A stretch of DNA of 57,055 bases from a virus (lineage: Duplodnaviria; Caudoviricetes): IMG/VR virus record IMGVR_UViG_3300046048_000470, positions 1 through 57,055 of that record, one strand, 5' to 3'. The notes beneath the pieces were generated by a model. That model saw nothing but the letters and a program-made list of their open reading frames with translations, was not told where the DNA came from and ran no database searches. This document shows, in pieces, positions 1 through 4,025 of this stretch. How positions within the stretch are numbered: position 1 is the stretch's first letter; every line of letters begins with the position of its first letter. A program made the translations under genes and the position numbers.

Positions 1-127
1 GCGGCGACGACCAGAACCTACTGGCAACCGGGGTTAACGGCCAACCGACGTTATTTTCTCGGGCCAGGCCTTGAACCTCAACGCCGCCGAACCACGGTGA
101 GGCGCATCCCACCGGTAAACCGTGATC
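1..127. repeat. Terminal direct repeat, copy 1 (identical to 56929..57055); indicates circular assembly
   Basis: Exact 127-bp identity between the two contig ends; 127 is a common assembler k-mer. Confidence 0.95.
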
Positions 128-336
128 TCGATCTCGGTGGCGCCATCCCAGCCCTCGGCCACCTGAATGGCATGATTCCAACTCACGTTGTCAGCGTTCC
201 GCCAGCGCTTGCATTCCCGATCGATCGCTGCGACCAGTGCGTCCCGAGCCTTGCCCTGGTACTCGCTTGGCATTTCCCACGCTGCCCGCTCGACGTCGTC
301 GATCGAGACCCTGAAATTCATGTGTCGTGTAGCCAT
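34..336 (-). CDS. Hypothetical protein (early region)
   Basis: 100-aa ORF, RBS AAAGGAG upstream, starts ATGGCTAC. Confidence 0.8.
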   Translation of the reverse strand: MATRHMNFRVSIDDVERAAWEMPSEYQGKARDALVAAIDRECKRWRNADNVSWNHAIQVAEGWDGATEIEITVYRWDAPHRGSAALRFKAWPEKITSVGR

Positions 337-366
337 CTCGCTTTGCTCCTTTGGTTAGGTGATTCG

Positions 367-423
367 TCGAGGGCCGGGAATCGAACCCGGGCACGCGTGT
401 ACCGCGTGTGGCCTACCCCCCGA
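367..423 (-). ncRNA. tRNA-like structure lacking a D-arm (not a canonical tRNA)
   Basis: 7-bp acceptor-like stem TCGGGGG/CCCTCGA contiguous with T-arm CCGGG-TTCGATT-CCCGG; central stem CACGCG-GTACA-CGCGTG; intergenic. Confidence 0.55.
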
Positions 424-430
424 GGGGTGA
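413..430. promoter_or_regulatory. Palindromic operator-like motif CTACCCCCCGAGGGGTGA
   Basis: Identical 18-mer at 7747..7764; variants at 16027, 28143, 52887. Confidence 0.6.
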
Positions 431-694
431 TCAGCCAACGGCATCGACCTCGACGACGATCGCCTGGACACCGCCGGCCAGGACAACCGAGCCGGGATCG
501 ACCTCGAACGACTCGGCGCTGTAGGCCGACAGCCAGAAACCTTCCGGGTCAGAGCGGATCAGGAGCCGGGCGCCGGCCTCGACCATGACACCGTGACGGC
601 CGATCGTGTCGACGTCGTGGCCTGCCGCGTCGAGTAGGAGGATCTCGTTGCCGATGATCCGTGCGGTGGTCGGGTGTCCAACGCCGTTGTTCAT
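431..694 (-). CDS. Hypothetical protein, first gene of leftward early transcript
   Basis: ATG at 694 with RBS GAGGAG; part of track ORF 431..778. Confidence 0.75.
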   Translation of the reverse strand: MNNGVGHPTTARIIGNEILLLDAAGHDVDTIGRHGVMVEAGARLLIRSDPEGFWLSAYSAESFEVDPGSVVLAGGVQAIVVEVDAVG

Positions 695-725
695 GTCGTG
701 CTCCTCGGTTGCTGGCTTGAACCAA

Positions 726-755
726 AACGTAGCACCCCAACACCCGAATCGTAAA
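726..755 (-). promoter_or_regulatory. Leftward sigma70/SigA-type promoter
   Basis: TTTACG-N18-TACGTT with extended TG. Confidence 0.55.
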
Positions 756-761
756 CCATGG

Positions 762-790
762 TTGCCGATTATTCTCACACGGTGTAAGGT
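762..790 (+). promoter_or_regulatory. Rightward sigma70/SigA-type promoter
   Basis: TTGCCG-N17-TAAGGT; same motif as promoters at 41546..41575 and 56562..56591. Confidence 0.7.
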
Positions 791-823
791 CGAGGCAAGC
801 CAGCAACCAAGGAGCCAGCAACC

Positions 824-2107
824 ATGAGCAACACACCGGACACCAGCAAACTCACCGAAGCCAGCATCGACCTACTCCGCAAAATCGTCATCAACTCCAA
901 GAACAACGGCGGCGACTTCGGATTCTTCGACGAACTCGACTTCGACACCGACCAGGCTGCAGCGGCAGCCAAGGGCAACCTGGCCGACCTCATCAAAAAG
1001 GGATTCGTCCAGTCATGGGAGGGACATCTTGAGCCAGTCGAATTCCACTTCTCGGATTGGTACGACTGGGCCGAGGGCACCGAAGCCAGCATCGACCTAC
1101 TCCGCGACGTCTACGCCGACCGTAAGCCCGGCTGGGTCGATGCTGAGAAGCACATGATCGCCCACATCGAATTCACCGAGCGCCGCCTAGGCGGCGCCCT
1201 CGCACGCAACGAGTCAGGGCATCCAGAGGCAGCCGACCTTGCCGCTGCACGCGGGACCCTGGCCGATCACCAGGCCGGCATCGTTCCACCTATGGGATGG
1301 TCGGTCGAGTCGACCGAAACGAACGCCCTGGTGGTCACCATCGACGGTTTCGGTGTCTACGCGGTTCGGACCGTCGAGCGGGTCGACGCTCTCTCTAACC
1401 GCCCCAGGTTCAGCATCTTCGCCGATGTCCTCGAAGCGGTCGCGGCCGACGCCTGCGAGCAGCCGTATCCGCAGCTCCCGACCGTCGCCCTGGTCGCCAT
1501 GGCAGGCGATTTCCTCGACGGAGCCGACGACCTCGAACGGTCGGCCGCCAGCAAGGGTCCTGCAGGGAGGGGGCCGGCGATGACGTCAACGGTGCAAACA
1601 ATCGGACAGCGAATCAAGGAAGAGAGGCTGAAGGCTGGGCTAACCCAGCGGGCGCTGGCTGTCAAGGTCGAAGTTGGAGTGCCACACATCTCAAAAATTG
1701 AGGCAGGTCGAGAGAGTCCGAGTGACGAACTACTGGAGCGCATGGCGGAGGCCTTCGGCGTCGACGCTGGCGAGCTAATGCTTGTAGCTCGCCGTATTCC
1801 GGATGCGGTACTGGACAAGCTTGCTGCCGACCCGGTCGACGCTCTTGAGTTCCTGCAAGAGAGTTGTCAAAGACCACGAGAGGAATACGGGCAATCCCGT
1901 CGAGTTCCCAGTGGTGCCGAGCCAGCCGAGGAGATCCCCACCAGCGCAGCGGCCGACGCACGGATCGAGCTGGCCGCCCTCCGTCAGACCCTCATCCATC
2001 TCAAAGCACAGCAGGAGCTGATCACCGAGGCGACCAACGGTGCTCTGGCCAAGGTCGAAACCTTGACCCTGCTGCTCTCCGGTCCCCAACTCAGCTTGTT
2101 CGACTGA
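824..2107 (+). CDS. Multi-module protein with XRE-family HTH (from about 1580) and C-terminal QLSLF motif; the HTH part may also be translated from its own ATG at 1580
   Basis: IGQRIKEERLKAGLTQRALAVKVEVGVPHISKIEAGRESPS is a typical XRE HTH; RBS AAGGAG before 824 and GGGAGG before 1580. Confidence 0.75.
   Translation: MSNTPDTSKLTEASIDLLRKIVINSKNNGGDFGFFDELDFDTDQAAAAAKGNLADLIKKGFVQSWEGHLEPVEFHFSDWYDWAEGTEASIDLLRDVYADRKPGWVDAEKHMIAHIEFTERRLGGALARNESGHPEAADLAAARGTLADHQAGIVPPMGWSVESTETNALVVTIDGFGVYAVRTVERVDALSNRPRFSIFADVLEAVAADACEQPYPQLPTVALVAMAGDFLDGADDLERSAASKGPAGRGPAMTSTVQTIGQRIKEERLKAGLTQRALAVKVEVGVPHISKIEAGRESPSDELLERMAEAFGVDAGELMLVARRIPDAVLDKLAADPVDALEFLQESCQRPREEYGQSRRVPSGAEPAEEIPTSAAADARIELAALRQTLIHLKAQQELITEATNGALAKVETLTLLLSGPQLSLFD
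853..1105 (+). repeat. 28-bp direct repeat (853..880 and 1078..1105) encoding TEASIDLLR twice
   Basis: caccgaagccagcatcgacctactccgc seen twice, in frame, 225 bp apart. Confidence 0.9.
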
Positions 2108-2120
2108 GCCCGAGCAGATC

Positions 2121-2156
2121 GAGGGCGCCCCGACCAGCGACAGTCGGGGCGCCCTC
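2121..2156. terminator. Hairpin terminator between convergent genes
   Basis: 14-bp perfect stem gagggcgccccgac/gtcggggcgccctc between the stops at 2107 (+) and 2204 (-). Confidence 0.7.
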
Positions 2157-2203
2157 TGCGCGTCCGAGAACGGACGCCACACACGACCGAACCGGAGCGT
2201 CCT

Positions 2204-2536
2204 TTAGTAGCCGAACGACAAGGTGGATACGTCCTCGACCGGGCGGGCCGCGCCAGACGTCCACCGGACCCACAGCACGTACTCGCCTTCGGCCGCCAGC
2301 TCGATGTCGGAACCAGCCGCGCCGACCGTCGGAGATAACGCCTCGACCTTCCCCGTCGACGACGACCACGAACCCAGCCACGAACCAGCGACCCATGAGC
2401 CGTCAGGGTCAGGGTCGGTGTTCCCCGACGTCGTCAGGAACTCGACAGATGCCGCGGTCGGGTCGGCCTGGCTGATCAGAGTCGCCCGAACCGTCTGCCG
2501 TGATCCTGGATTGATCCCGTGCACCGGTCGAGTCAT
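2204..2536 (-). CDS. Small virion-associated protein of fibre module (beta-rich)
   Basis: DPT..VEF...W..G.W...G.Y.LWVR pattern recalled from actinophage small structural proteins; follows repeat protein. Confidence 0.55.
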   Translation of the reverse strand: MTRPVHGINPGSRQTVRATLISQADPTAASVEFLTTSGNTDPDPDGSWVAGSWLGSWSSSTGKVEALSPTVGAAGSDIELAAEGEYVLWVRWTSGAARPVEDVSTLSFGY

Positions 2537-2546
2537 GGCCCGCATC

Positions 2547-4025
2547 CTAGCTGTCGGTGCCAGAGCGAACGTTGTGGACCCTGTTGGCCAGCTCTGACCG
2601 TCCGGCCCTGTTCGCCAGCTCCGAGCGTGCAACCCGGTTCCGGACCGCTATGAGGACACCAACGAACGGGATCGTGACCGTTGCAGCATCGACCGCGCCG
2701 ATGGTGTCGGCCAGGGCAACGAACAGGGCCATCGCGACGGCCGCCTGGTCGGTCATGCCCATGGACTCAGCGGCTATGACCTGGAGCCCGAGCGACACGC
2801 CGGCAGCATCGGCGCAGTCGAGCAGGTCGGCTATGACCGCCTGGTGCCCGACCGAGACCGTCACAGCATCTGTGACACCGAGCAGGTCGGCCTCGTCGAC
2901 CGTCGGCGCCGCTGACGTTTGAGCATCGGCCACATCCGACATGCCAACGTTGTCGGCCAGAGCCACAGCTAGGCCCATGGTGATTGTCACTGCGTCAGTC
3001 AGGCCAACCGATTCCGCGACGACGGCCGCCTGGTCGAGGGCCACCGCGACGGCGTCAGTGACACCGAGCAACTCGGCTGCAGAGACCACCCCGCCCATCG
3101 CTGCCGTCACTGAGCCGGTCAGGCCGAACGATTCCGCCTCGACCGCTCCCAAGCCCATGGCCACAGCCACGGCATCTGTGACACCGACCGGATCGGATTC
3201 GTCGACAATCCCACCGATAACGACCGCCGCCGAGTCAGACAACCCGACCGATTCGGCCTCGCCGCCGACCAGGTCCATCACAGCGGTCACGGCATCTGTG
3301 ACACCGAGCGACTCGGTTTCGTCCTGAGTGAGATCAGCTCCGCCGCCCTCGGTCCACTCGATCCCGATGATCTGCCCGGAGTATTTCGTCCCGCCACCGC
3401 TGAAACCGATGGTCACACCGGTCGCCGTGTTCGTGGTCGATTCGAGGACCTTCATCGGTGACCCGACCGAGTCGTTGTCGTGGACATCGGCGAAACCGCT
3501 CGGGTTCGCATCCCACGACGACAGACCCGCGTCGCAAACCCACGCGCCGATGATCATCTGGTGAGCCGACGGCGCCCCCGAGAACGTGACCGTGATCGGC
3601 TCGCCACCACTGGTATTCGTGGCCGACTGGACCACGGTCCCGTCGAACCCGGTCCCCGTCCACGCCGTCAAAGACAGCGCGTAGTAGAACTGATTCGTGC
3701 CGTTGTTCCGGCCGTCGATCGTGACCTGGATCGTCTCGTTGTCGGTCAGAACAGACGAGACCCACACAGCCAGTTGAGAAGCGAACGAAGCACCGGCCGC
3801 CGTGTTGATCGACGTCGCGACGACCTTCGTCCACGTGATCGTGTTCGTCGACGCGTTGTCGTCGATGTCGAACAGGGCACCGAGCCCCTGGCTGTGGGAA
3901 TCGTCTCGGGTCGCCAGACCAACAGCGACGATCCGGTCACCGGCCAGGAACGCCGACGACTGGCTGTAGGTCTGGCTCGCGGACAGCCCTGAGTTGCCGA
4001 TGGCTTCAGCTACAACGGTCGCCAC
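2547..4025 (-). CDS. Fibre-like structural protein with about 11 tandem 20-aa repeats
   Basis: G/S/T-rich N-domain followed by repeats of type EAESVGLTDAVxVxxGxxxV. Confidence 0.65.
   Translation of the reverse strand: MATVVAEAIGNSGLSASQTYSQSSAFLAGDRIVAVGLATRDDSHSQGLGALFDIDDNASTNTITWTKVVATSINTAAGASFASQLAVWVSSVLTDNETIQVTIDGRNNGTNQFYYALSLTAWTGTGFDGTVVQSATNTSGGEPITVTFSGAPSAHQMIIGAWVCDAGLSSWDANPSGFADVHDNDSVGSPMKVLESTTNTATGVTIGFSGGGTKYSGQIIGIEWTEGGGADLTQDETESLGVTDAVTAVMDLVGGEAESVGLSDSAAVVIGGIVDESDPVGVTDAVAVAMGLGAVEAESFGLTGSVTAAMGGVVSAAELLGVTDAVAVALDQAAVVAESVGLTDAVTITMGLAVALADNVGMSDVADAQTSAAPTVDEADLLGVTDAVTVSVGHQAVIADLLDCADAAGVSLGLQVIAAESMGMTDQAAVAMALFVALADTIGAVDAATVTIPFVGVLIAVRNRVARSELANRAGRSELANRVHNVRSGTDS

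What the first reader, a model, noticed from the sequence alone, without database searches (positions are those of the whole stretch)
367..423. 57-nt tRNA mimic without a D-arm embedded in the early transcript
Seen on the minus strand: 7-bp acceptor-type stem (TCGGGGG/CCCTCGA) stacked directly on a canonical T-arm (CCGGG-TTCGATT-CCCGG). An 8-nt GTAGGCCA linker replaces the D-arm but keeps a GG. There is a 6-bp stem with a non-canonical loop and no encoded CCA. It lies between two genes, about 30 nt upstream of the start at 336, and overlaps the operator-like palindrome. Established: acceptor plus T-arm geometry is what RNase P, RNase Z and the CCA-adding enzyme recognise (cf. tmRNA TLD, mascRNA). 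Inference: an mRNA-processing signal or a released small RNA decoy, for example for tRNA-targeting defence nucleases.
Basis: partly seen in the sequence, partly recalled or inferred. Interest (0 to 1): 0.75.

Follow-up and report, generated by a model that had tools for sequence, protein, structure and literature searches.

The report
Non-decoding tRNA-like element in phage
Between two small genes of an uncultured actinobacterial phage lies a short stretch that keeps the acceptor stem and T-arm of a glutamine/asparagine-type tRNA but lacks the parts needed for decoding, so it is either a worn-down tRNA gene or a tRNA-shaped processing signal in the messenger RNA.

Summary
The sequence features are real. 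On the minus strand (423->367) a 7-bp stem with one G-U abuts a textbook T-arm. An 8-nt linker and a 6-bp hairpin stand in place of the D and anticodon arms. An 'acceptor + T-arm' descriptor hits once in this genome and in 1 of 300 simulated genomes. ARAGORN and Rfam call no tRNA.

The acceptor and T-arm resemble U1-A72 tRNA-Gln/Asn genes, many from Acidimicrobiia/Actinomycetota, so the element is tRNA-derived. It is not an exact host tRNA 3' end in 185,579 species genomes. The phage has no integrase.

In transcript context the 57-nt fold is predicted not to form (P <= 0.02). A 93-nt four-helix fold (456->364) dominates instead (P 0.84-0.99). It is closed by a perfect 9-bp stem that uses the end of the upstream ORF.

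The phage is a singleton with no homologues and no RNA data, so covariation and end mapping are impossible.

Best reading (0.4): a non-decoding, tRNA-derived structure acting as a t-element-like processing or stability signal. An inert, eroded tRNA gene is nearly as likely. Interest is modest.

The parts
367..423 (-). 57-nt 'mini' tRNA-like fold: 7-bp acceptor-type stem stacked directly on a 5-bp T-stem (12 bp in all)
   Evidence: Sequence. It is the MFE when folded alone. Only hit of the acceptor+T-arm descriptor in the genome, found in 1 of 300 simulations. Predicted probability is about 0 in native context.
417..423 (-). Proximal 5' strand TCGGGGG (U1-type start)
   Evidence: The same 7-mer starts most of the 95 tRNA-Gln/Asn genes retrieved by the 3'-strand pattern. 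This is partly forced by complementarity to the pattern.
409..416 (-). 8-nt linker GTAGGCCA in place of the D-arm; 3' half of hairpin A in the large fold
392..408 (-). Hairpin B: perfect 6-bp stem with 5-nt loop GUACA. No U33 and no 7-nt anticodon loop.
   Evidence: P 0.98-0.99 in all contexts. Single copy in the genome.
374..390 (-). Canonical T-arm: 5 Watson-Crick pairs, loop TTCGATT
   Evidence: P 0.70-0.94 in all contexts. Best local match to real tRNAs, 15 nt at E 0.003.
364..373 (-). 3' strand. 373-367 pairs with the proximal strand; 372-364 pairs with the distal strand. U370 pairs as G-U in one stem and A-U in the other.
448..456 (-). Distal 5' strand UCGUCGAGG, inside the last codons of ORF 431-694. 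It forms a perfect 9-bp stem with 372-364.
   Evidence: (P 0.84-0.99). A 9-bp Watson-Crick partner 60-110 nt upstream occurs for 23 of 37,952 sampled 9-mers in this genome.
409..437 (-). Hairpin A: interrupted 11-bp stem with tetraloop. It contains the stop codon UGA (433-431) and sequesters the G-run of the proximal strand.
364..456 (-). 93-nt four-helix junction (closing stem, hairpin A, hairpin B, T-arm): the predicted structure in the transcript
   Evidence: MFE -49.1 kcal/mol, z -2.55, 5 of 200 shuffles as good. The same fold appears in 101-, 131-, 161- and 221-nt contexts. Rfam tRNA-Sec model aligns 454-366 at 23.3 bits, under the gathering score of 47.
431..694 (-). Upstream ORF (87 aa from ATG 694), unknown function, no relatives found
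   Evidence: GC by codon position 0.73/0.44/0.82. No Pfam or PHROG family. No relatives in viral contigs. No usable hit by features in the protein atlas, which holds no model of it.
34..336 (-). Downstream ORF (100 aa), GGAG at 349-346, unknown function, ORFan
   Evidence: GC by codon position 0.59/0.50/0.72. No family. Only itself among 5.8 billion proteins. Protein atlas gave no hit by features and only low structural matches with no family named.
824..2107 (+). Divergently transcribed HTH_3 regulator (427 aa), repressor-like. Its N-terminal 250 aa have no relatives.
   Evidence: Pfam HTH_3 1.3e-14. PHROG repressor/regulator families. Only itself found.

Best explanation
The element is a tRNA-derived, non-decoding RNA structure. 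It keeps the acceptor-stem sequence type (U1-A72, TCGGGGG/CCC[U]CGA) and an intact T-arm of a tRNA-Gln/Asn-like gene. It has no D-arm and no anticodon loop, so it cannot act in translation.

It is transcribed as part of the leftward two-gene unit. It most likely works in cis as a tRNA-shaped processing or stability signal, like a plant-mitochondrial 't-element'. The host's tRNA 5'- and 3'-end enzymes (RNase P; RNase Z or exonucleases) would cut at its borders. That would separate the upstream ORF from the downstream ORF, whose ribosome-binding site starts about 15 nt after the structure.

In the primary transcript the predicted form is a 93-nt four-helix junction closed by a 9-bp stem that reaches into the last codons of the upstream ORF. 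The 57-nt canonical 7+5 bp form is an alternative. It can form only if the leader is removed or held open, for example by a terminating ribosome.

Shown: the sequence anatomy, its non-randomness, its likeness to tRNA-Gln/Asn ends, and the predicted folds. Inferred: transcription, cleavage by tRNA enzymes, and any effect on expression.
For: 1. Non-random tRNA geometry. The descriptor hits once in the genome and in 1 of 300 simulated genomes.
2. All 18 pairs of the mini fold are intact with a single G-U. The T-loop matches the consensus GGTTCRANTCC.
3. The 3'-strand/T-loop pattern retrieves real tRNAs. Almost all of the 95 begin with, or within one base of, TCGGGGG; 3 printed rows read TCGGGGA (1) or TCGAGGG (2). 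The nearest in 802 sampled Actinomycetota genomes are two tRNA-Gln(TTG) genes, each with 3 mismatches in 24.
4. A second, perfect 9-bp closing stem exists in the same register. By chance it is expected for 0.06% of 9-mers here. It makes a four-helix junction with z -2.55 and P 0.84-0.99 in every context tried. U370 is compatible with both 5' strands.
5. The element fills a 94-nt intercistronic gap on the coding strand. It leaves the GGAG at 349-346 unpaired in the 101- and 131-nt folds.
6. Precedent (papers read as passages). tRNA-like structures with non-canonical cloverleaves, found through this same T-loop motif, mark RNase P/Z cuts at mRNA ends in Arabidopsis mitochondria, including cuts inside reading frames (PMC1920247). 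Bacterial RNase P cuts polycistronic mRNAs and phage regulatory RNA precursors (PMC4919922).
Against: - No homologue exists in any collection searched, so there is no covariation evidence at all.
- Folding energies are only mildly unusual: 57 nt z -1.43; 161 nt z -1.32.
- The canonical 12-bp acceptor/T stack is predicted not to form in context.
- The dominant fold has 9+5 bp with a bulged C373, which is not the standard measuring geometry for RNase P.
- Rfam scores are far below threshold.
- T-arm fragments with no evident role occur in other actinophage genomes. Partial tRNA genes are common by-products of mobile-element integration (PMC9897764, abstract and passages).
- No tRNA-related enzyme is encoded by the phage.
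Confidence: 0.4

Rival explanations
1. Inert relic. It is a phage-borne (or captured host) tRNA-Gln/Asn gene that lost its D-arm and anticodon loop through internal deletions. It is simply decaying, and the RNA structure has no role.
For: - It cannot decode: no D-arm, no U33, a 5-nt loop.
- Actinophages carry tRNA-Trp/Gln/Asn clusters, and unannotated T-arm fragments lie beside or apart from them (GMA2, SkiPole, Konstantine).
- The best global alignment to tRNA-Gln(TTG) reads as a tRNA with deleted blocks.
- Partial tRNA genes are widespread (PMC9897764, abstract and passages).
- It is a singleton with no sign of conservation.
Against: - A decaying gene that suffered multi-nucleotide deletions would be expected to show broken pairs. 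Here all three helices are perfect except one G-U.
- There is an additional perfect 9-bp closure that is rare by chance (0.06%).
- The internal similarity to tRNA-Gln is not significant: 20 of 200 shuffles of the middle score as well.
- No other tRNA piece is present in the genome.
Confidence: 0.3
2. Att-type core. It is the attachment site, or a scar of one, of an integration module that targets a tRNA-Gln/Asn gene, left beside the repressor-like gene after loss of the integrase.
For: - The only other sequences with this closed 'mini' architecture found in 241 million metagenome records include three att-type loci. L122 and L123 lie just upstream of tyrosine integrases (PF00589 1.4e-16 and 3e-18). 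L125 shares L122's left flank.
- The element lies about 400 nt from an HTH_3 repressor-like gene.
Against: - No tyrosine integrase, large serine recombinase or resolvase is present in the circularly assembled genome.
- Unlike L122/L123/L125, whose T-arm and 3' end match those of many retrieved tRNA-Gln(CTG) genes, this element's 21-mer is absent from 185,579 species genomes.
- No match with <= 2 mismatches in 24 was found in 802 sampled genomes.
Confidence: 0.15
3. Released small RNA. The 57-nt form is cut out by RNase P and RNase Z, receives CCA, and acts in trans, for example as a decoy for tRNA-targeting defence nucleases or acceptor-end-modifying toxins.
For: - Exact 7+5 bp geometry, U1-A72 acceptor and intact T-loop.
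- End-to-end alignment to the mascRNA-menRNA model.
- mascRNA is made this way in mammals (PMC4919922, passages).
Against: - The mini fold is predicted not to form in the precursor (P <= 0.02).
- The Rfam score is 23.7 against a gathering score of 42.5.
- There is no anticodon loop to bait anticodon nucleases.
- No phage tRNA-repair or CCA enzymes are encoded.
- Literature searches found no phage precedent for a D-armless tRNA decoy.
Confidence: 0.07
4. Ordinary GC-rich hairpin cluster (terminator or 3'-end stabiliser) whose tRNA likeness is coincidental.
For: - High-GC sequence folds strongly anyway: z -1.3 to -1.4 for the 57- and 161-nt windows.
- The T-loop motif alone is expected 0.41 times per genome.
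Against: - The full descriptor is found in 1 of 300 simulated genomes.
- No terminator-like hairpin with a T-run on the minus strand in 1-2600.
- The acceptor sequence type coincides with real tRNA-Gln/Asn genes.
Confidence: 0.05

Closest known systems
tRNA-Gln / tRNA-Asn genes with a U1-A72 acceptor (many from Acidimicrobiia and other Actinomycetota among those retrieved)
   Same: - Acceptor strands TCGGGGG / CCC(C/T)CGA.
- A 5-bp T-stem with a GGTTCGANTCC loop.
- The 7+5 bp stack.
- Nearest examples are L129 and L130, tRNA-Gln(TTG), with 3 mismatches in the 24-nt T-arm+acceptor.
   Different: - No D-arm.
- 1-nt variable region.
- A 6-bp/5-nt hairpin without U33 instead of an anticodon arm.
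- Position 73 is C, not G.
- Not called by ARAGORN or Rfam.
Plant mitochondrial t-elements (Forner et al. 2007, PMC1920247; passages read)
   Same: - Non-canonical cloverleaves carrying the GGTTCRANYCC motif inside mRNA precursors.
- They lie next to, or even inside, reading frames, and their ends coincide with RNase P/Z-type cuts.
- This is what the element would work like.
   Different: - They belong to an organellar system with protein-only RNase P.
- Processing there was mapped experimentally; here nothing is mapped.
- There is no sequence relationship.
mascRNA / menRNA (Rfam RF01684)
   Same: - Size of about 57 nt.
- Acceptor stem, short central hairpin and T-arm, with no real D-arm.
- The model aligns end to end, positions 1-56.
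   Different: - These are vertebrate nuclear lncRNA 3' ends.
- The score is 23.7 bits against a gathering score of 42.5.
- E = 0.052 for 1.5 kb searched, and nothing at gathering threshold for the whole genome.
- It is not a member.
Att cores of tRNA-Gln-targeting integrative elements (metagenome loci L122, L123, L125)
   Same: - The same closed architecture: TCGGGGG, a 19-29-nt spacer, a T-arm, then the 3' acceptor strand.
- Length of 50-60 nt.
   Different: - Their T-arm and 3' end match those of many retrieved tRNA-Gln(CTG) genes, and L122 and L123 abut tyrosine integrases.
- This element matches no genome searched and has no integrase.
RNase P-processed phage immunity RNAs (C4 RNA precursor of P1/P7; listed among non-tRNA substrates in PMC4919922, passages read)
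   Same: A structured RNA within a phage regulatory-region transcript that would be cut by a host tRNA-processing enzyme.
   Different: - Those are antisense regulators with defined targets.
- No target complementarity or processing is known here.
- There is no sequence or structural homology.
D-armless mitochondrial tRNAs (e.g. nematode mt-tRNA-Ser; PMC7609411, passages read)
   Same: The acceptor is joined to the next helix by a short connector in place of the D-arm.
   Different: - Those keep a 7-nt anticodon loop and decode.
- ARAGORN's mitochondrial mode made 18 calls in the genome, none at this element.

Membership tests
Canonical bacterial/phage tRNA | Cloverleaf with D-arm, detected by tRNA finders above threshold | tested here: not met
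   ARAGORN finds 0 genes in standard and pseudogene modes. Rfam has no hit at gathering score in the whole genome. The best clan hit is tRNA-Sec at 23.3 bits against 47.
Canonical bacterial/phage tRNA | 7-nt anticodon loop with U33 on a 5-bp stem | tested here: not met
   The loop is GUACA on a 6-bp stem. Opened to 7 nt it reads GGUACAC, with G at position 33.
Canonical bacterial/phage tRNA | 5-bp T-stem with a T-loop matching GGTTCRANTCC | tested here: met
   CCGGG-TTCGATT-CCCGG at 390-374. P 0.70-0.94 in all contexts.
Canonical bacterial/phage tRNA | 7-bp acceptor stem stacked directly on the T-stem | tested here: inconclusive
   Present in the isolated 57-mer (P 0.86 when the 5' end is exactly 423). 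P is 0.00-0.02 with native flanks, where a 9-bp stem with the distal strand replaces it.
mascRNA-menRNA (RF01684) | Score at or above Rfam's gathering threshold | tested here: not met
   23.7 bits against 42.5; E 0.052.
mascRNA-menRNA (RF01684) | Excision by RNase P and RNase Z, followed by CCA addition | not testable with these tools
   No RNA run holds the sequence.
attP/att core of a tRNA-targeting integrative element | Block of exact identity to the 3' part of a host tRNA gene | tested here: not met
   The 21-mer is absent from 185,579 species genomes. In the 24-mer search, 0 of 802 sampled Actinomycetota genomes match with <= 2 mismatches; 15 match with 3, of which 2 are tRNAs. The host may be unsampled.
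attP/att core of a tRNA-targeting integrative element | Cognate integrase/recombinase encoded nearby | tested here: not met
   PF00589, PF07508 and PF00239 each give 0 matches in the whole circular record.
t-element-like mRNA processing signal | T-loop consensus inside a non-canonical cloverleaf within an mRNA precursor | tested here: met
   Motif. Predicted four-helix junction 456-364 on the coding strand between two ORFs. This is prediction only.
t-element-like mRNA processing signal | Transcript termini that coincide with the element's ends | not testable with these tools
   No RNA data. Laying the one DNA run gave nothing on the element.
tmRNA tRNA-like domain | Detected as tmRNA, with a tag reading frame | tested here: not met
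   ARAGORN finds no tmRNA. Rfam tmRNA_permuted scores 12.9 bits against 47.
Intrinsic terminator | GC-rich hairpin followed by a T-run | tested here: not met
   No terminator-like site on the minus strand in 1-2600. The 3' flank has no T-run.

The most novel reading that the evidence does not exclude
A translation-gated, bistable tRNA mimic. The same T-arm and 3' strand can close with either of two 5' strands in the same register, and U370 pairs with A450 or G420. In the untranslated precursor the distal strand (inside the upstream ORF) and hairpin A (which holds the UGA stop) lock the RNA in the 93-nt form. A ribosome reaching the stop melts both and frees the G-run. That allows the canonical 12-bp, U1-A72 tRNA-Gln/Asn-like minihelix to form. 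RNase P and RNase Z can then excise this minihelix as a 57-nt mini-tRNA. The cut uncouples the downstream gene from the upstream one, or the excised RNA acts in trans. Cutting the 93-nt form at the distal strand would instead leave the upstream message without a stop codon.
Probability: 0.08. Interest if true: 0.75.

Novelty: new member of a known kind. Interest (0 to 1): 0.35.

Why it matters
If the element is processed by tRNA-maturation enzymes, it would show that a double-stranded-DNA phage of Actinomycetota uses tRNA punctuation to cut an operon transcript. That strategy is known from organelles and from a few RNase P substrates in coliphage immunity regions. It would also show how an eroded tRNA gene can be recycled as a regulatory RNA.

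If it is only a relic, it is a useful annotation caveat. A perfect acceptor/T-arm module can survive without being a tRNA or an att site, and folding a candidate in isolation can suggest a structure that the native flanks do not allow. It also hints, weakly, at the host: an actinobacterium, possibly of the class Acidimicrobiia.

Tried and rejected
**Homologues for covariation: none found.**
- megablast and blastn of 1-3000 and 1-1500 against 50,697 phage records gave no match.
- The exact 22-mer is not in viral contigs.
- Protein-guided locus searches with ORF 34-336, ORF 431-694, the DUF6093 protein and the major capsid protein found no relatives in viral contigs.
- Word-indexed protein searches with ORF 34-336, the N-terminal domain of the HTH protein and DUF6093 found only the window's own proteins.

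**Expression.** One run is listed, a DNA run that is probably the source, and no RNA holder is listed. Laying that run at 80% likeness placed 4 contig pieces of 35-44 nt, all under 90% alike and none on the element. This is uninformative.

**Other checks that gave nothing.**
- Protein atlas for the two flanking ORFs: no usable hit by features for either. ORF 34-336 gave only low structural matches with no family named, and the atlas holds no model of ORF 431-694.
- Internal homology to tRNA-Gln (GGCCACACGCG against GGCAACACGCG) looked attractive but is not significant: 20 of 200 shuffles score as well.
- Reading it as a tRNA-Sec or other class II tRNA over 454-366: 23.3 bits only, no UCA anticodon loop, non-pairing D region. 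Rejected.
- The CRISPR-DR12 hit on the plus strand (22.2 bits against 37) is the complement of hairpin A and is single-copy. Rejected.
- Operator role for the hairpin-B palindrome: single copy within 3 mismatches. Better operator candidates lie in the 695-823 intergenic region.
- Other tRNA pieces in the genome: none beyond 9-12-nt chance matches.
- Metagenome loci L121 and L124 match the mini pattern but have a poor T-stem. In L121 the match lies inside long ORFs. They were set aside as chance.

**Literature.** Searches for D-armless or decoy tRNA-like RNAs in phages gave no direct precedent. 'Not in print' rests only on those searches of the held library.

Supplementary files of papers were not consulted.
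Full report
**What the window is.**
- The window is a complete IMG/VR virus record of 57,055 nt. Its first and last 127 nt are identical, so it is a circular assembly.
- GC content is about 64%.
- Nearly all genes lie on the minus strand:
  - terminase, 26029-24428;
  - endolysin-like, 22333-21296;
  - major head protein, 9941-8898;
  - minor head protein, 7737-5728;
  - and, across the circular junction, a DUF6093 head-tail protein, a tail tube protein, the tape measure, a UvrD-type helicase, ERF, RuvC, a replication initiator and a WhiB-domain protein.
- WhiB proteins are, from recalled knowledge, typical of Actinomycetota and their phages. Weak tail-protein matches are to Nocardia, Skermania, Mycobacterium and Streptomyces phages.
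- The finding lies in a small module between the head and tail gene blocks. An HTH_3 repressor-like gene on the plus strand (824-2107) diverges from two small minus-strand ORFs (694-431 and 336-34).
- Both small ORFs have coding-type GC3 and Shine-Dalgarno-like sequences. Neither has any relative or family.
- Whether this unit is 'early' is not known.

**Checking the observation.**
- Folded alone, the 57 nt give exactly the proposed structure. The energy is not exceptional for this composition: z -1.43, and 20 of 200 shuffles fold as well.
- The tRNA likeness itself is not chance.
  - The T-loop consensus occurs once, against 0.41 expected.
  - A descriptor demanding a T-arm immediately followed by a strand that pairs (at most 1 G-U) with a strand 10-45 nt upstream of the T-arm is met once in the genome, at 367-423. 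It is met in 1 of 300 simulated genomes; a T-arm alone appears in 49 of 300.
- ARAGORN finds no tRNA or tmRNA in standard or pseudogene mode. Its mitochondrial (D-armless) mode makes 18 calls, none here.
- Rfam finds nothing at gathering score in the whole genome. At relaxed threshold it gives mascRNA-menRNA at 23.7 bits (gathering 42.5) over 423-367, and tRNA-Sec at 23.3 bits (gathering 47) over 454-366.

**Where it comes from.**
- The exact 21-mer of T-loop, T-stem and 3' strand is absent from one genome each of 185,579 prokaryotic species. The 22-mer is absent from IMG/VR.
  - 95 matches overlap ARAGORN tRNAs, all tRNA-Gln (CTG 65, TTG 20) or tRNA-Asn (GTT 10). 25 overlap no called tRNA.
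  - By my own count, 36 of the 80 record titles shown are Acidimicrobiia-type MAGs or isolates, and about 15 more are other Actinomycetota.
  - These tRNAs almost all start TCGGGGG, like the element. That is partly forced, because the pattern fixed the complementary strand.
- In 401 genomes of the class of Acidithrix and 401 of the class of Streptomyces, the 24-nt T-arm+acceptor has no match with <= 2 mismatches. It has 15 matches with 3 mismatches, and two of those are tRNA-Gln(TTG) genes.
- A global alignment to those tRNAs reads as a tRNA-Gln with blocks deleted. The similarity of the middle part is not significant: 20 of 200 shuffles score as well.
- No other tRNA fragment is present in the genome.
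- I conclude with fair confidence that the element derives from, or imitates, a U1-A72 tRNA-Gln/Asn-type tRNA. It is not a copy of any tRNA 3' end in the genomes searched.

**Att site?**
- The genome encodes no tyrosine integrase, large serine recombinase or resolvase.
- A gapped pattern for 'mini' versions of such tRNAs found nothing in IMG/VR. It found five metagenome loci.
- Two of the five (L121, L124; the same sequence) have a poor T-stem. In L121 the match lies inside long ORFs.
- The other three are instructive.
  - L122, L123 and L125 carry a closed 50-60-nt element. Its T-arm and 3' end match those of many retrieved tRNA-Gln(CTG) genes.
  - In L122 and L123 a tyrosine integrase gene starts within about 100 nt.
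- That is what a real att core looks like, and this window lacks both hallmarks. An att scar of an unsampled host remains possible (0.15).

**Structure in context.**
With native flanks of any length tried (94 to 221 nt), the 7-bp stem has probability 0.00-0.02.
- The G-run 422-417 pairs with CCCC 427-424 in a hairpin (437-409) that contains the upstream ORF's UGA stop.
- The 3' strand pairs with UCGUCGAGG (456-448), the codons for the ORF's last residues. This gives a perfect 9-bp stem with P 0.84-0.99.
- The result is a 93-nt four-helix junction: closing stem, hairpin A, hairpin B and T-arm. Its energy is -49.1 kcal/mol, z -2.55, and 5 of 200 shuffles fold as well.
- Empirically in this genome:
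  - a perfect 9-bp partner 60-110 nt upstream exists for 23 of 37,952 sampled 9-mers (0.06%);
  - a 7-bp partner (at most 1 G-U) 38-63 nt upstream exists for 491 of 37,986 sampled 7-mers (1.3%).
- The two 5' strands use the same register, with U at 453 or 423 opposite A367. U370 pairs with A450 in one stem and G420 in the other.
- The mini fold reaches P 0.86 only when the RNA starts exactly at 423.
- All of this is thermodynamic prediction on a single sequence.

**How it most likely works.**
- It cannot decode: it has no D-arm, a 5-nt loop and no U33.
- It is not followed by a T-run, and its hairpin is not a repeated operator.
- The remaining options are a cis-acting tRNA-shaped RNA signal or an inert relic.
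- I favour the first, narrowly (0.4 against 0.3), for three reasons:
  - all helices are intact despite the loss of whole arms;
  - a second, improbable closing stem exists;
  - the structure fills the intercistronic gap and leaves the downstream ribosome-binding site free.
- The mechanism would be that of plant-mitochondrial t-elements. These are non-canonical cloverleaves, found through the same T-loop motif. Their ends coincide with RNase P/Z-type cuts, some of them inside reading frames (PMC1920247, passages).
- Bacterial RNase P is known to cut polycistronic mRNAs and phage regulatory RNA precursors (PMC4919922, passages).

**Against this reading.**
- There is no conservation, no expression data and only modest z-scores.
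- The dominant fold has a non-standard 9+5 bp stack with a bulged C.
- Unannotated T-arm fragments in SkiPole, GMA2 and Konstantine, and the literature on partial tRNA genes (PMC9897764, abstract and passages), show that tRNA debris is common.
- The decoy idea has nothing specific in its favour. The phage has no CCA-adding enzyme or RtcB.

**Verdict.**
- The element is tRNA-derived. It is not a tRNA, not a member of any Rfam family, and not a demonstrable att core.
- Function is inferred only. Because the phage is a singleton, the question cannot be settled computationally with the data reachable here.
- Interest is modest (0.35). The boldest reading not excluded is a translation-gated switch between two tRNA-like closures (probability about 0.08).

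Noticed in passing
L122:210-269, L123:1402-1451 (minus strand), L125:1235-1294: Metagenome contigs carry closed 50-60-nt 'mini tRNA-Gln' elements: TCGGGGG, a variable 19-29-nt spacer, then a T-arm and 3' end matching those of many retrieved tRNA-Gln(CTG) genes. In L122 and L123 the element sits directly upstream of a tyrosine integrase. L122 and L125 share the left flank and differ on the right, like attP versus an att junction. L122 also has an anticodon-arm-like hairpin upstream. It is not explained why att sites should keep a 5' acceptor strand.
   Followed up: partly
window 443-450, 497-504, 866-873, 1091-1098: The 8-mer ATCGACCT occurs 9 times in the genome against 2.5 expected; 0 of 100 shuffles reach 9. 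Four of the nine copies fall within 656 nt around the divergent promoter region, all in plus orientation. Three are extended to GCATCGACCT. The two left copies overlap the distal strand region of the element. They may be a regulator-binding motif or a coding-repeat effect (EVD / IDLL).
   Followed up: partly
window 853-880 and 1078-1105: A perfect 28-nt direct repeat lies inside the HTH_3 gene. It encodes a duplicated peptide motif in the gene's ORFan N-terminal domain.
   Followed up: no
window 700-719 / 796-815 and 747-770: A 20-nt inverted repeat (95% complementary) embraces both divergent ribosome-binding sites. A 24-nt palindrome centred on CCATGG lies between them. Both are better operator candidates than the hairpin inside the element. 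No sigma-70-type promoter was found by the simple scan.
   Followed up: no
window 2121-2156: A perfect 14-nt inverted repeat with an 8-nt loop lies just after the stop of the HTH gene, between convergent genes. It is probably a terminator-type hairpin without a T-run.
   Followed up: no
L142:601-626 (SkiPole), L143:601-629 (GMA2), L141:601-634 (Konstantine): Unannotated T-arm-like fragments lie in intergenic DNA of cultured actinophages. In GMA2 the fragment is just upstream of a tRNA-Trp/Gln/Asn cluster. None has a closing 5' strand, and ARAGORN calls none of them, even in its relaxed mode.
   Followed up: partly
window 1-2600 and whole genome: A repressor-like HTH module sits between the head and tail gene blocks of a phage with no detectable integrase, resolvase or large serine recombinase. 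The lifestyle (lytic, or non-integrating lysogen) is open. All three window proteins searched (ORF 34-336, HTH N-terminal domain, DUF6093) had no relative in the word-indexed search of 5.8 billion proteins.
   Followed up: partly
window 2547-4025 (minus strand): A 492-aa protein has many tandem copies of a short G-(V/L/M)-(T/S)-D-(A/S)-x-x-V-type peptide repeat and no family match. It is possibly a head decoration or fibre protein.
   Followed up: no
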